Origin: a virus
Taxonomy: Duplodnaviria; Heunggongvirae; Uroviricota; Caudoviricetes
Strand: one strand, 5' to 3'
IMG/VR virus record: IMGVR_UViG_2681813320_000017
DNA: 4,569 nt
The translations under genes were made by a program, and so were the position numbers. Shown here piece by piece: positions 1,334-4,569 of this stretch (within the stretch, counting starts at the first letter, position 1; each line of letters opens with the position of its first letter). The notes beneath the pieces are model-generated. The model was not told the origin of the DNA, made no database searches, and was given only the letters and a program-made list of their open reading frames with translations.

Positions 1334-1606
1334 TCACCTCGCCGTCAGTTGTTTGGATTTCCGGTAGCCTGCAGCGTAAATGGCTACGTTTGGAAGACAA
1401 GTTGAACCTTCATATTTTCTGGTCAACGTTGTCAGAGTTATAACTTCTGCTCTCATTGCTGGTTTGCGCTTGCATTGCAAGACCACTCGTGAAGGGGTTG
1501 GCCTGTGTAGCTTGTCGGAGCTAATCGACTCCTGACTTTGCAGGTTTGCGCGACGAGCTCTACGGCGAGAAGCTGCGGTGCCTTTAAATTCTGTTTTTCT
1601 GGACAT
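1334..1606 (-). CDS. N: N-like transcription antitermination protein (90 aa) with N-terminal arginine-rich motif
   Basis: The track ORF 1334..1678 has an internal ATG at 1604-1606 preceded by a strong SD (GGGAGGA, about 5 nt spacing). The product starts MSRKTEFKGTAASRRRARRANLQ..., an arginine-rich motif like the boxB-binding ARM of lambdoid N proteins (my recollection is that it is closest to the phage 21 type). It sits immediately downstream of a boxA/boxB nut site, in the position N occupies in lambda. Confidence 0.75.
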   Translation of the reverse strand: MSRKTEFKGTAASRRRARRANLQSQESISSDKLHRPTPSRVVLQCKRKPAMRAEVITLTTLTRKYEGSTCLPNVAIYAAGYRKSKQLTAR

Positions 1607-1794: not shown

Positions 1795-1905
1795 ATAATA
1801 ATGAACTATTGGTTCGATATAATCAAGAACCATAAGTACGAAATTTTGTTGTTCATTCGTTTTCTCGAGATATGGTTTTGATATATAAGGTATTTTATTT
1901 TTGTA
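1795..1905 (-). promoter_or_regulatory. Probable pL/OL region (leftward early promoter and operators); exact hexamers uncertain
   Basis: AT-rich non-coding stretch upstream of nutL and N. Candidate minus-strand promoters: TTGATT (rc of 1821-1826) -17- CATTAT (rc of 1798-1803), or TTTACA further upstream. The motif AACCATAAGTACGAAA at 1828-1843 repeats the AACCATAA...GTACGAAAA motif seen at OR (3930-3957). Confidence 0.35.
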
Positions 1906-2056: not shown

Positions 2057-2740
2057 TTAGGGGGTTGAGACTCCAGAGAGCAATCCGTAGATTTTATATA
2101 CAGCAAATGCTAATGCTGGCAAGCCAAGGGCCCATTTGATTATATCAAGCTTAACATCACTAAGCTTACCTTCTAACTTTGCCTCTTGAACAGAAAGAGC
2201 TGCATCGATCTTTTTTGATTGGGAGTCAAGGGCACTCTCAATTCTACTCGATTGTATGTCCAGACGACTGTTGATTTGTTCGTGCTGAGTAACAACTAAA
2301 TGCTTCATCTCCTTTATATCTGAAGCCATTAGTTCACGCCATTTGGCCATATCAGCCTGCATTTTTGAGGCCACTGCATCCACTTCAGCTTTATTTGCCT
2401 TCAGAAGTGCCTGTATTTCGTTTCTGCTCAAATCGGACATTGCGGTTCCCTGTATAGGAGTTTCCTCGTACGGTGGGATAACATTAGATTGTCCTTTACA
2501 ATCGGCAACCCCTCCTTTATCTACGATTGTAGCAGTTAGCTGGGAATTGGTCGCATCATCCACCATGTTTTTTGGTGAATAAGAGGAAATAGGCGTAGAA
2601 AACAGATTACCTTTTGCTGTTTCCATGAACATCATGAAATCGCGAGTATTAACGTTATTCAGGGAAACTTGCAGTGGTTTAACAATACTTGATGTTTTGT
2701 AAGTAATAGTTAAATCACCTACTTCTTCCGGTTGTTGCAT
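2057..2740 (-). CDS. Hypothetical membrane-anchored coiled-coil protein (227 aa); distal gene of the cassette at the rexAB position
   Basis: ATG at 2738-2740 overlaps the upstream gene's stop (TAATG, translational coupling); stop TAA at 2057-2059. Ser/Thr/Asn-rich N-terminal about 100 aa; central region with heptad-like charged/hydrophobic periodicity (EIQALLKANKAEVDAVASKMQADMAKWRELMA...IDAALSVQEAKLEGKLSDVKLD); single C-terminal hydrophobic helix IIKWALGLPALAFAVYKIYGLL. Not similar to lambda RexA or RexB. Confidence 0.75.
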   Translation of the reverse strand: MQQPEEVGDLTITYKTSSIVKPLQVSLNNVNTRDFMMFMETAKGNLFSTPISSYSPKNMVDDATNSQLTATIVDKGGVADCKGQSNVIPPYEETPIQGTAMSDLSRNEIQALLKANKAEVDAVASKMQADMAKWRELMASDIKEMKHLVVTQHEQINSRLDIQSSRIESALDSQSKKIDAALSVQEAKLEGKLSDVKLDIIKWALGLPALAFAVYKIYGLLSGVSTP

Positions 2741-3060
2741 TACGACTTCGCTCCATTAGAGTTTTGTGCCTCTAATTGTTCGAAAAGAAGAACTATATTC
2801 TCTTGAAGAGCCTTTAGTTGTGCCATTGGCATTATCACAGTGCATTGCTGATTGAGTTCATTTACAGAGCCTATCTGCATATTCGCTCTACCTGGTTGAT
2901 CTGGTATATCATTTTGGGATAGTACCGCAGGTATTGACTTGTTTGCGATAAAATGTATACAAATGAGATTTTTTTCCGCTCCCGGTAGTGGAGCAAAACT
3001 AGCGAAGTCCGCATAGGTTTCAATATAATCCACAGATGGTTTAATTTTGACCGGTTCCAT
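2740..3060 (-). CDS. Hypothetical small protein (about 106 aa); proximal gene of the cassette at the rexAB position
   Basis: Track ORF 2740..3075 begins with TTG (3073-3075) then ATG (3070-3072), neither with an SD. The ATG at 3058-3060 (MEPVKIKPSVDYIETY...) is preceded by GAGAGG, so I place the start there; alternative starts at 3072 or 3075. Stop TAA at 2740-2742 overlaps the ORF227 ATG. No recognisable domain. Confidence 0.65.
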   Translation of the reverse strand: MEPVKIKPSVDYIETYADFASFAPLPGAEKNLICIHFIANKSIPAVLSQNDIPDQPGRANMQIGSVNELNQQCTVIMPMAQLKALQENIVLLFEQLEAQNSNGAKS

Positions 3061-3077
3061 AACGCCTCTCATCAAAT

Positions 3078-3106
3078 ATTGTAGGTTTTTTAATTCAATG
3101 TGTTAA
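3078..3106 (-). promoter_or_regulatory. Candidate sigma70 promoter for the ORF111/ORF227 cassette, independent of cI
   Basis: Minus strand: -35 TTAACA (rc of 3101-3106), 17-nt spacer, -10 TACAAT (rc of 3078-3083), in an AT-rich 108-bp gap between the cI stop (3184) and ORF111. Predicted start site lies just upstream of the GAGAGG SD. Analogous in position to lambda pLIT. Confidence 0.3.
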
Positions 3107-3183
3107 ATGTTGGTGGTGTGTTATTTAAAGTTATTTTGACATCCTCCACGCCCTGAAGGACGGGGCTTGTCGCGTACTTGAAG

Positions 3184-3891
3184 TCACAAACTTTTCAGCC
3201 ACTCCCTTGCCTCGATGTCATCCAGATGACGAGATTGCTTCAGAATACCAGCCACATACTCCACCTTTGCTACTTGATGATAAGGTAACGTTATTGGCCT
3301 GTGGTCCTGGTTGATGCTTGTAAATTGGTATTCTCCATCTCTGTCATAGCCAAGAATCTTGATCATGTTGTGTCCTTCAACGGTTCTGACAAACACCTCA
3401 TCCCCCGGGAATACTTTGGTGTTAGGCTCAATGAGTACATATTCTCCTGATTTTATTCTGGGCCACATGCTGTCTCCTTTCACACGAAGACCAAAGGCAT
3501 CTGGATCATCACTATAAATCTTGAGCCACCCATCGCGCTCTTCGGTCATCTCGATGGCACCATCAACACCAAGAATTGCCTCACCAACCACGCGCACTAA
3601 CCCTTTTTTTAATTTGCCAACAAATGAAAGAGTATCTTCATCATTCGCTCCATTTAACGAAGTGCCGTGCTGAAGCCAAACAACATCAACGTTTAGAAAT
3701 TTCGCAAGCGCATTCATTTTTTCCTGACGCGGTAAAGACTCAGCATTAAACCATTTGCTAACGCCTTTGGACGAAAGAGAAAGGGCACGGGCTATGGCCA
3801 TACCCCTACCATGTTCATCAAGACCAGCTTCTTTACAGGCTTGCGCTAGCCGCTGGGCGAATTCTTTGCGCACTTTTTCATTCTGAACCAT
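3184..3891 (-). CDS. cI: CI-type prophage repressor, N-terminal HTH DNA-binding domain plus C-terminal LexA-like S24 autopeptidase domain (235 aa)
   Basis: ATG at 3889-3891, stop TGA at 3184-3186. HTH-like segment GMAIARALSLSSKGVSKWFNAE; catalytic Ser in GDSMWP (Ser141) and Lys in HNMIKIL (Lys178), with 37-residue Ser-Lys spacing as in LexA. Divergent from cro across a 78-bp operator region. No SD before the ATG, consistent with a lambda-like leaderless pRM transcript. Confidence 0.9.
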   Translation of the reverse strand: MVQNEKVRKEFAQRLAQACKEAGLDEHGRGMAIARALSLSSKGVSKWFNAESLPRQEKMNALAKFLNVDVVWLQHGTSLNGANDEDTLSFVGKLKKGLVRVVGEAILGVDGAIEMTEERDGWLKIYSDDPDAFGLRVKGDSMWPRIKSGEYVLIEPNTKVFPGDEVFVRTVEGHNMIKILGYDRDGEYQFTSINQDHRPITLPYHQVAKVEYVAGILKQSRHLDDIEAREWLKSL

Positions 3892-3969
3892 GAGTACGAT
3901 ACTAAAGCACTTGCAAAAACTTTCAGTTCAACCATAATGCGTACTAAAAGTACGAAAAGGGATATTCCT
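3892..3969. promoter_or_regulatory. OR region: pR promoter (-35 TTGCAA 3911-3916, 16-nt spacer, -10 CATAAT 3933-3938), operator palindrome CGTACT-AAA-AGTACG (3940-3954), and probable pRM on the minus strand
   Basis: Divergent intergenic region between cI and cro. Near-consensus rightward promoter. A perfect 6-bp inverted repeat with 3-bp spacer lies right at the predicted pR start site. Further GTACG half-site-like motifs at 3893-3898 (AGTACGATACT). Minus-strand TAGTAT shortly upstream of the cI ATG is a candidate pRM -10. Confidence 0.7.
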
Positions 3970-4197
3970 ATGCAAAATCTTGATGAGCCGATTAAAGGTG
4001 TCGGCATCCCTGAAGTTGCGAAGGCTTGTGGAGTTAGCGAAAGGGCTGTCTATAAGTGGCTCAAAAACGGCTTCCTCCCTAAGACTGAGTTTTTTGGGAA
4101 AACGAAATACGCCTCAAAAATCGAAGAGATTTCTGGTGGCAAATATCAAGCAAGCGAATTGCTTGAAATAAGCAAAAAGAACCTTCTGGCAGCATAA
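3970..4197 (+). CDS. cro: Cro-like repressor / HTH DNA-binding protein (75 aa)
   Basis: ATG at 3970-3972 preceded by AAGGG at about 8 nt; stop TAA at 4195-4197. HTH-like segment IPEVAKACGVSERAVYKWLKNG. The track ORF starts at ATG 3937, but that codon lies inside the pR -10 hexamer and has no SD. First rightward gene, divergent from cI. Confidence 0.8.
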   Translation: MQNLDEPIKGVGIPEVAKACGVSERAVYKWLKNGFLPKTEFFGKTKYASKIEEISGGKYQASELLEISKKNLLAA

Positions 4198-4204
4198 GTA
4201 ACCC

Positions 4205-4250
4205 CGCTCTTTGTAACAACGGACATTCGTCCTACGTCGCTGAAAAGCGA
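4205..4250 (+). promoter_or_regulatory. nutR: nutR-like site: boxA (CGCTCTTTGTAACAACG, 4205-4221) plus boxB hairpin (TCGCT-GAAA-AGCGA, 4237-4250)
   Basis: Immediately downstream of the cro stop. boxA matches consensus and the nutL boxA. boxB is a perfect 5-bp stem with GAAA loop, sharing the core CTACGT.GCTGAAAAGC.AG with the nutL hairpin. Confidence 0.6.
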
Positions 4251-4279
4251 GTCCCAAGATATCTGACCAACTAAGGCCA

Positions 4280-4297
4280 TATGCGTTTCCACGCATA
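4280..4297 (+). other. Hairpin TATGCGT-TTCC-ACGCATA between nutR and cII; possible tR1-associated structure
   Basis: 7-bp perfect stem with 4-nt loop at 4280-4297, followed by ACCTTTCAA (weak U-tract). It sits where lambda has the Rho-dependent tR1. Confidence 0.3.
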
Positions 4298-4335
4298 CCT
4301 TTCAACTAACTATTCACTATTGGAAATCTTAAGAA

Positions 4336-4569
4336 ATGGAACAAACAAGTTACAGCAAACTATCACAGCGCGACGTTGATCGCGCAGAAACAGATTTACT
4401 TATCAACCTGTCAACGCTTACCCAGCGCGGTCTGGCAAAGATGATTGGCTGTCATGAATCGAAGATAAGCAGAACGGACTGGAGATTTATTGCTTCGGTC
4501 TTGTGTGCTTTCGGAATGGCATCAGACATCAGTCCGATTAGCAGGGCTTTTAAGTATGCGCTTGATGAA
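4336..4569 (+). CDS. cII: CII-like transcriptional activator, N-terminal 78 codons; runs off the right edge of the window
   Basis: ATG at 4336-4338, open to the window end, so absent from the ORF track. Translation: MEQTSYSKLSQRDVDRAETDLLINLSTLTQRGLAKMIGCHESKISRTDWRFIASVLCAFGMASDISPISRAFKYALDE. The HTH followed by ...KISR..W resembles the lambda CII helix-turn-helix region (..VDKSQISRWKRDW..). Position after cro and nutR matches lambda gene order. Confidence 0.7.
   Translation, partial: MEQTSYSKLSQRDVDRAETDLLINLSTLTQRGLAKMIGCHESKISRTDWRFIASVLCAFGMASDISPISRAFKYALDE

What the first reader, a model, noticed from the sequence alone, without database searches (positions are those of the whole stretch)
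3892..3969. Compact OR with one perfect operator palindrome (CGTACT-AAA-AGTACG) and GTACG-type half-sites; motif reappears at OL and elsewhere
The only perfect dyad in the cI-cro intergenic region is the 15-mer at 3940-3954, overlapping the pR start, which looks like an OR1. Other operators must be degenerate (for example AGTACGATACT at 3893-3903). The hexamer AGTACG/CGTACT also occurs at 1835-1840 (putative OL, within AACCATAAGTACGAAA, which mirrors AACCATAA...GTACGAAAA at OR), at 3173-3178 just after the cI stop, and at 801-806. By rough reckoning this is above chance for a 4.5-kb window, hinting at extra repressor contacts or looping sites. The repressor specificity is not lambda's (lambda half-sites are TATCACCGC-like).
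Basis: seen in the sequence. Interest (0 to 1): 0.45.

Follow-up and report, generated by a model that had tools for sequence, protein, structure and literature searches.

The report
Known 933W-type phage repressor operators
The palindrome is the well-studied OR1 operator of the phage 933W immunity type, one of five repressor-binding sites in this E. coli prophage window, so the feature is real but ordinary and already characterised.

Summary
CGTACTAAAAGTACG sits at 3940-3954 and is the only perfect dyad between cI and cro. The hexamer CGTACT/AGTACG occurs 6 times against about 0.8 expected.

It is not new. The immunity module (about 3179-4330) is 97.5% identical to phage 933W. The cI protein is 233/234 identical to 933W cI, and Cro is 74/75 identical. 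The palindrome aligns base for base with the annotated 933W oR1.

The window holds exactly the five known 933W-type operators, each a 15-mer of the form N-G-(A/T)-A-C-N5-G-T-(A/T)-C-N:
- OR1 3940-3954
- OR2 3916-3930
- OR3 3884-3898
- OL1 1802-1816
- OL2 1826-1840

It missed OR2 and OL1 and chose the wrong register for OR3.

The two remaining hexamers (801-806 and 3173-3178) have no partner half-site and score below shuffled background. As a pair they are within chance (P about 0.19). The one at 3173 travels with an unrelated two-gene cassette, not with cI. The suggestion of extra contacts or looping sites is therefore unsupported.

The only local peculiarity is a G-to-A change at the non-contacted position 7 of OR1, which makes a central A4 tract.

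The parts
3940..3954 (.). OR1 operator, CGTACTAAAAGTACG. It has GTAC in both half-sites and a central A4 tract. It covers the predicted pR start.
   Evidence: Aligns column for column with the annotated 933W oR1 (AF125520 12831-12845). PWM score 18.0 bits. It is the only perfect dyad in the intergenic region. 933W has G at position 7 (window 3946); the A variant is seen in 5 of 86 sequences.
3916..3930 (.). OR2 operator, AAAACTTTCAGTTCA. It lies in the pR spacer and over the annotated pRM -35.
   Evidence: Identical to the annotated 933W oR2. One mismatch to GWAC-N5-GTWC. PWM 12.8 bits. The A at position 2 of one half-site is the known OR2 peculiarity (PMC3317979).
3884..3898 (.). OR3 operator, TGAACCATGAGTACG. 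It spans the cI start codon (CAT at 3889-3891) and the annotated pRM start.
   Evidence: Identical to the annotated 933W oR3. Exact pattern match. PWM 16.6 bits.
1802..1816 (.). OL1 operator, TGAACTATTGGTTCG. It lies in the spacer of the inferred pL.
   Evidence: Exact pattern match. Highest PWM score, 19.2 bits. Aligns with 933W TGAACCAATAGTTCG, which is annotated as the OL1 repressor binding site in GQ499363.
1826..1840 (.). OL2 operator, AGAACCATAAGTACG. It abuts the inferred pL -35.
   Evidence: Exact pattern match. PWM 16.6 bits. Aligns with 933W AGAACTATTGGTACG, annotated as OL2 in GQ499363. It lies 24 bp centre to centre from OL1, the same spacing as OR1-OR2.
3911..3938 (+). pR promoter: -35 TTGCAA (3911-3916), 16-bp spacer, -10 CATAAT (3933-3938).
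   Evidence: Promoter scan. Same position as pR annotated in 933W and phi24B.
3899..3926 (-). pRM (pM), the maintenance promoter for cI. On the minus strand the -10 is TAGTAT (3904-3899) and the weak -35 is CTGAAA (3926-3921).
   Evidence: Transferred by alignment from the 'putative' pM/pRM annotation of AF125520 and HM208303. Not tested independently here.
1798..1826 (-). Inferred pL. On the minus strand: -35 TTGATT (1826-1821), 17-bp spacer, -10 CATTAT (1803-1798).
   Evidence: Read directly from the sequence. The same arrangement is conserved in 933W (TTGATA-17-CATTAT). It matches 8 of 12 consensus positions, below the threshold of the scan, so this is an inference.
3184..3891 (-). cI repressor gene (235 aa; HTH_3 plus Peptidase_S24).
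   Evidence: 233/234 identical to 933W cI, with an identical N-terminal DNA-binding domain. Pfam domains.
3970..4197 (+). cro gene (75 aa).
   Evidence: 74/75 identical to 933W Cro. HTH families.
1334..1606 (-). N antiterminator gene, the first gene of the pL operon controlled by OL.
   Evidence: Pfam N_peptide, E = 1.6e-31.

Best explanation
The window is the immunity region of an E. coli lambdoid prophage of the 933W immunity type.

The palindrome at 3940-3954 is OR1, the highest-affinity site for the 933W-type cI repressor. A repressor dimer reads positions 2-5 of each half-site, G-(A/T)-A-C, in a 15-bp two-fold symmetric site.

The proposed mechanism follows what has been shown for 933W:
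- Repressor at OR1 and OR2 occludes pR.
- Repressor at OR2 activates pRM.
- Repressor at OR3, which lies over the cI start, shuts pRM off.
- Repressor at OL1 and OL2 occludes pL.

What is shown here: the presence and position of the sites, their statistical excess, their conservation, and the identity of the repressor to 933W cI.

What is taken from the literature on 933W: binding, the affinity order, the absence of adjacent-site cooperativity and the absence of an OL3.

What is inferred: that the window's variant sites behave in the same way.
For: 1. Module identity. The module is 97.5% identical to 933W, phi24B and Min27. cI is 233/234 identical and Cro 74/75.

2. Operator alignment. OR aligns with the annotated 933W oR1/oR2/oR3 with only three substitutions, none at positions 1-6 of any half-site.

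3. Statistical excess. There are four exact GWAC-N5-GTWC matches against 0.14 expected, all in OR or OL. In the PWM scan the five operators score 12.8-19.2 bits. The next best site scores 6.8 bits, and the best site in shuffled sequence averages 9.6 +/- 2.3 bits.

4. Conservation of OL.
   - In 78 of the 80 related loci with enough flank, an OL pair 24 bp apart lies 1.6-3.1 kb from the cI start.
   - Positions 2-5 are invariant there and the central 5 bp vary. The other 2 loci carry one substitution at position 2.
   - Between the window and 933W, all 8 differences in the 39-bp OL span avoid positions 1-5.

5. Independent replicate. Salmonella phage SF6 is a P22-like phage whose repressor DNA-binding domain is 91% identical. 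It shows the same OR1/OR2/OR3 and OL-pair layout.

6. Published biochemistry matches the sites found.
   - The site is 15 bp. Positions 2, 4 and 5 are critical, T at position 3 and C at position 6 are favoured, and position 8 is A/T.
   - Position 6 is T in 7 of the 10 natural half-sites and C in 3.
   - OR1 is the strongest site (PMC3317979).
   - The window's ten half-sites show the same 7 T / 3 C split at position 6 and have A/T at every centre.
Against: No binding experiment exists for this exact variant. OR1 has A instead of G at position 7, and OL1 and OL2 have different central bases from 933W.

The PWM and pattern were derived from 933W sites that are nearly the same as the window's OR sites. 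The OR scores are therefore partly circular. The OL sites and the SF6 comparison are the independent support.

The pRM position is transferred from annotations marked 'putative'. It places the OR2 centre only about 31 bp upstream of the start, unlike lambda's -42 (from my own knowledge).
Confidence: 0.95

Rival explanations
1. The extra CGTACT hexamers at 801-806 and 3173-3178 are auxiliary repressor contacts that help OR-OL looping or regulate neighbouring genes.
For: Each is a perfect copy of the best half-site, CGTACT. The hexamer at 3173 lies 6 bp beyond the cI stop and about 70 bp upstream of a promoter-like site for the downstream cassette. The hexamer at 801 is kept in 19 of 21 loci that carry that segment.
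Against: - Neither has a usable second half-site. As 15-mers they score 6.8 and -1.1 bits, against 9.6 +/- 2.3 for the best site in shuffled sequence.
- Two leftover hexamers are within chance (P = 0.19).
- The hexamer at 3173 is present in only 4 of 85 loci with the same repressor. It always comes with the two-gene cassette and lies outside the 933W-homologous module.
- The hexamer at 801 overlaps the 3' end of an ORF, so its conservation need not reflect binding.
- 933W repressor is reported not to bind adjacent sites cooperatively, and its long-distance loop is reported to have no role in pRM control (PMC3317979; title of ref 28 in PMC5977221).
Confidence: 0.03
2. The palindrome acts as an RNA hairpin (a leader structure or terminator) rather than as a protein-binding site.
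For: The 40-nt stretch folds with the 6-bp stem at -7.3 kcal/mol, z = -2.4. The minus strand was listed as terminator-like by the crude scan.
Against: - The pR -10 ends at 3938, so transcription should start around 3945, inside the left arm. The pR transcript therefore cannot form the stem.
- The minus-strand 'terminator' has no T-rich tail (CATTATGGTT).
- The same half-site recurs in non-palindromic partners (OR3, OL2) at fixed 15-bp geometry. This fits a dimeric protein and not an RNA stem.
Confidence: 0.01
3. The operator next to cI is the reader's AGTACGATACT (AGTA-CGA-TACT dyad, 3893-3903), not the 15-mer 3884-3898.
For: AGTA/TACT is a small 4-bp dyad lying wholly in the intergenic region.
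Against: - The spacing is wrong for the 15-bp site defined biochemically.
- The registers containing it score about -9 bits.
- The annotated and studied oR3 is 3884-3898.
- ATACTA is the annotated pRM -10.
- In phage SF6 the equivalent stretch reads GAGTTCGATAGTA. That keeps the 15-mer (TGAACCATGAGTTCG) but breaks the small dyad.
Confidence: 0.01

Closest known systems
Phage 933W OR/OL operators and cI repressor (Koudelka laboratory; Tyler, Mills and Friedman 2004; Bullwinkle et al. 2012, PMC3317979)
   Same: The repressor is the same (233/234 identical). There are five sites at the same relative positions, with the same half-site cores, the same OR1-OR2 and OL1-OL2 spacing of 24 bp and the same pR. 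OR2 and OR3 are identical in sequence.
   Different: OR1 has A instead of G at the non-contacted position 7, giving CGTACTAAAAGTACG. OL1 and OL2 differ in 3 central bases each. The DNA between cI and OL carries a different two-gene cassette instead of the stk module, so OL lies about 2.06 kb from OR rather than about 3.08 kb.
Phage lambda OR/OL
   Same: Same logic. Divergent cI and cro flank three operators that overlap pR and pRM. A second operator cluster lies at pL, about 2 kb away, in front of N.
   Different: - Lambda sites are 17 bp with TATCACCGC-type half-sites, which are absent here beyond chance.
- Lambda has OL3, pairwise cooperativity and a regulatory OL-OR loop. 933W is reported to have no OL3, no adjacent-site cooperativity and a loop without a role in pRM.
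- OR2-OR3 spacing here is 32 bp. The intergenic region is 78 bp, against about 100 bp in lambda (the lambda figure is from my own knowledge).
HK022-type repressor DNA-binding domain, and Salmonella P22-like phage SF6
   Same: The 933W N-terminal domain is described as nearly identical to that of HK022 (PMC3202840). SF6 has a 91% identical domain and shows the same operator pattern and layout.
   Different: The C-terminal domain and surrounding modules differ. SF6 OR1 is TGTACTGAAAGTACA and its OR3 uses GTTC instead of GTAC. HK022 operators were not examined here.
434 and P22 repressor operators
   Same: The central bases are not contacted and are read indirectly. A central A-tract raises affinity (PMC3317979).
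   Different: The half-site sequences and the repressors are unrelated in specificity.

Membership tests
933W-type immunity operators | 15-bp two-fold symmetric site with G-(A/T)-A-C at positions 2-5 and 2'-5', T or C at position 6, and A/T at the centre | tested here: met
   Four exact matches plus OR2 with the known position-2 exception. Position 6 is T in 7 and C in 3 of the window's ten half-sites, and all centres are A/T, as described in PMC3317979.
933W-type immunity operators | Three sites in OR between divergent cI and cro, two sites in OL, and no OL3 | tested here: met
   The PWM scan gives exactly five sites above background, three in OR and two in OL. The 'no OL3' statement is in PMC5977221.
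933W-type immunity operators | Cognate repressor carries the 933W DNA-binding domain, including contact residues S41, K42 and K46 | tested here: met
   cI is 233/234 identical to 933W cI. The only difference is I179V, in the C-terminal domain.
933W-type immunity operators | Positional identity with the annotated or footprinted 933W operators | tested here: met
   Alignment to AF125520, HM208303 and GQ499363 features.
933W-type immunity operators | Repressor actually binds these variant sites, with the affinity order OR1 > OL2 ~ OL1 > OR2 > OR3 and no adjacent-site cooperativity | not testable with these tools
   Needs EMSA or footprinting. Published only for the 933W sequences.
Lambda-type operators | 17-bp sites with TATCACCGC-like half-sites in OR and OL | tested here: not met
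   One 1-mismatch half-site hit, at 4361 inside cII, against 0.63 expected. None in OR or OL.

The most novel reading that the evidence does not exclude
The lone perfect half-site CGTACT at 3173-3178 lies just 3' of cI and about 70 bp upstream of the promoter-like site of the two-gene cassette. It might be a weak auxiliary repressor contact that couples cassette expression, or an OR-OL loop, to repressor level in this sub-lineage.

A milder version concerns OR1. The G-to-A change creates a central A4 tract that could tighten repressor binding and lower spontaneous induction relative to 933W.
Probability: 0.04. Interest if true: 0.3.

Novelty: already known. Interest (0 to 1): 0.07.

Why it matters
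It matters little as a discovery. These operators, their repressor and their unusual non-cooperative switch have been dissected biochemically for phage 933W, because the switch controls Shiga toxin 2 release.

The practical value is annotation. This prophage should be homoimmune with 933W, phi24B and Min27. The same OR occurs in 427 of 5426 complete E. coli genomes.

The natural variation could serve as a ready-made mutant series for the indirect-readout model. The contacted cores are invariant, the central bases vary freely, and OR1 has an A4 variant.

Tried and rejected
- I tried to read the primary operator papers (Tyler et al. 2004, PMC524894; Bullwinkle and Koudelka 2011, PMC3133280). Neither is held. 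OL positions therefore rest on the GQ499363 annotation and on consistency with the half-site counts in PMC3317979.
- The Stx2 phage I record annotates different 17-bp 'putative operators', including a set inside another gene. I disregarded these as lambda-style guesses.
- The first conservation test was circular, because OL sites were collected by requiring the core pattern. An approximate search corrected this and found 2 loci with a position-2 substitution in OL2.
All were rejected.
- My 20-nt lambda operator pattern was badly built, because real lambda sites are 17 bp. Only the half-site search is used.
- PADLOC and Pfam searches on the cassette proteins gave nothing useful.
- A literature search for a repressor site in stk found nothing.

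Full report
**Observation.** CGTACTAAAAGTACG occupies 3940-3954. It is the only perfect inverted repeat with arms of at least 6 nt between the cI start (3891) and the cro start (3970). The hexamer CGTACT/AGTACG occurs at 801, 1835, 3173, 3893, 3940 and 3949. That is six copies against 0.73-0.79 expected from dinucleotide-preserving shuffles (P = 0.0002).

**Identity of the region.**
- The ORFs are a 235-aa HTH plus S24-peptidase repressor on the minus strand (3184-3891), a 75-aa HTH protein on the plus strand (3970-4197), the start of cII, and an N-peptide antiterminator (1334-1606, minus strand).
- The segment from about 3179 to 4330 is 97.5% identical to the immunity region of 933W, phi24B, Min27 and many other Stx phages.
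- The repressor is 233/234 identical to 933W cI, with an identical N-terminal domain. Cro is 74/75 identical.
- Whole-window matches are E. coli prophages. The 96-nt OR stretch is found in 427 of 5426 complete E. coli genomes.

**Operators at OR.** GenBank records for 933W, phi24B, phi345 and phage 27deltatox annotate oR1, oR2 and oR3. By alignment they map to these window positions:
- OR2 3916-3930, AAAACTTTCAGTTCA
- OR3 3884-3898, TGAACCATGAGTACG

The window differs from 933W at three positions in this stretch: 3939, 3946 and 3959. Only 3946 lies inside an operator. It is position 7 of OR1 (G in 933W, A here), a position the repressor does not contact.

**Agreement with the biochemistry.** The published work (PMC3317979) describes the following.
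- The site is a 15-bp symmetric site.
- Positions 2, 4 and 5 (G, A, C) are critical.
- Position 3 is A or, better, T.
- Position 6 is T or, better, C.
- The centre is A/T and is read indirectly.
- OR1 is the strongest natural site.

The window's sites fit this description base by base.

**Operators at OL.**
- The pattern GWAC-N5-GTWC has four exact matches in the window against 0.14 expected (0 of 5000 shuffles). Two are OR1 and OR3.
- The other two are TGAACTATTGGTTCG (1802-1816) and AGAACCATAAGTACG (1826-1840), 24 bp apart, upstream of N.
- They align with TGAACCAATAGTTCG and AGAACTATTGGTACG of 933W, which GQ499363 annotates as OL1 and OL2.
- With these assignments the ten 933W half-sites give the 7 T / 3 C split at position 6 stated in the paper, so the assignment matches the authors'.
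OL1 was missed because it uses GAAC/GTTC.

**Are there further sites?** A weight matrix built from the ten 933W half-sites scores the five operators at 12.8-19.2 bits. The next best 15-mer scores 6.8 bits, and the best site in shuffled sequence averages 9.6 +/- 2.3 bits.
- The 15-mers starting at 801 and 3173 score 6.8 and -1.1 bits. Each has one perfect half-site and no partner.
- Two leftover hexamers are within chance (P = 0.19).
- Among 85 related loci with essentially the same repressor, the hexamer at 3173 is present in 4. In all four it comes with the two-gene cassette downstream of cI. The other 81 loci have unrelated sequence there.
- Homology to 933W begins at 3179, immediately after that hexamer.
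- The hexamer at 801 overlaps the 3' end of an ORF and is kept in 19 of 21 loci that carry that segment. This is not informative about binding.
- I conclude that these two are not operators.

**Comparative support.**
- Across the 85 loci and the window, positions 2-5 of all three OR sites never change.
- An OL pair with the 24-bp spacing is present in 78 of the 80 loci with enough flank. It lies between 1.6 and 3.1 kb from the cI start. The cores are constant and the central five bases vary freely.
- That collection required the core pattern, so I repeated it with an approximate search. Two further loci turned up in which OL2 has T at position 2.
- Between the window and 933W, the 39-bp OL span has 8 differences, none at positions 1-5 of any half-site.
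- Salmonella phage SF6 is P22-like and its repressor DNA-binding domain is 91% identical. It has the same three OR sites and an OL pair, with four exact matches against 0.18 expected.

**Mechanism.**
- pR is TTGCAA-16-CATAAT at 3911-3938. OR2 fills its spacer and OR1 covers the expected start.
- pL is read from the sequence as TTGATT-17-CATTAT on the minus strand (1826-1798). It is conserved in 933W. OL1 lies in the spacer and OL2 abuts the -35. This promoter is inferred, because it falls below the scan threshold.
- pRM is transferred from 'putative' annotations. Its -10 is TAGTAT (3904-3899) and its start lies next to the cI ATG, under OR3.
- From the literature on 933W: OR1 and OR2 repress pR, OR2 activates pRM, and OR3 represses pRM at only slightly higher repressor concentration. 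Binding to adjacent sites is not cooperative and there is no OL3. The OL-OR loop is reported to have no role in pRM control.
- That the window behaves identically is an inference from near-identity.

**The one local difference.** The G-to-A change at OR1 position 7 makes a central A4 tract. In the consensus-site context, a change that creates a central A-tract raised affinity. The variant is therefore expected to bind at least as well. This is an inference. It occurs in 5 of 86 sequences.

**Rivals.** An RNA-hairpin role for the palindrome is unlikely. The pR transcript should begin inside the left arm, and the minus-strand 'terminator' call lacks a T tail.

**Verdict.** The feature is real and correctly located, but it is the already characterised 933W operator set.

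Noticed in passing
L001 785-799 (phage 933W, AF125520 about 10354-10368, inside stk); not in the window: 933W and 27 other loci carry an exact operator-like 15-mer, AGTACATCTAGTACG, with GTAC in both halves like OR1. It lies inside the stk kinase gene, about 2.43 kb left of the cI start. It is not among the 'five naturally occurring sites' of PMC3317979. Its position 6 is A on one side, which is unfavourable. The chance of one such match per locus is not negligible.
   Followed up: partly
window 2057-3183: A two-gene cassette sits between cI and OL, where 933W has the stk module. The genes are 2740-3075 (111 aa, no family) and 2057-2740 (227 aa, a sub-threshold CCDC90-like coiled coil), both on the minus strand. 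It has a promoter-like site (3106-3078, minus strand) and a terminator (2051-2032, minus strand). There was no meaningful PADLOC hit, and the cassette is absent from all 50,697 deposited phage genomes apart from a 31-nt match. It may be a lysogen-expressed accessory gene pair of unknown function.
   Followed up: partly
window 3135-3165: This 31-nt stretch just downstream of cI matches 100% a site inside hypothetical gene L0135, near the other end of 933W and many Stx phages. It may be a short shared sequence at a mosaic junction.
   Followed up: no
window 1802-1840 versus L001 132-172: The window's OL1 (GAACTATTGGTTC) is the reverse complement of 933W OL1 (GAACCAATAGTTC). It also shares its first 10 nt with 933W OL2 (GAACTATTGG). 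This suggests flipping or exchange between operator copies while the contacted cores are kept.
   Followed up: no
window 3884-3954: The OR2-OR3 spacing is 32 bp centre to centre, against 24 bp for OR1-OR2. With the annotated pRM start at 3892, the OR2 centre lies only about 31 bp upstream and OR3 lies over the cI start codon. This geometry differs from lambda's. The annotated pRM is marked 'putative'.
   Followed up: no
L038 and L059, OL2: Two related loci have ATAACCATAAGTACG, with T at the critical position 2 of one OL2 half-site. This resembles the tolerated A at position 2 in OR2.
   Followed up: no
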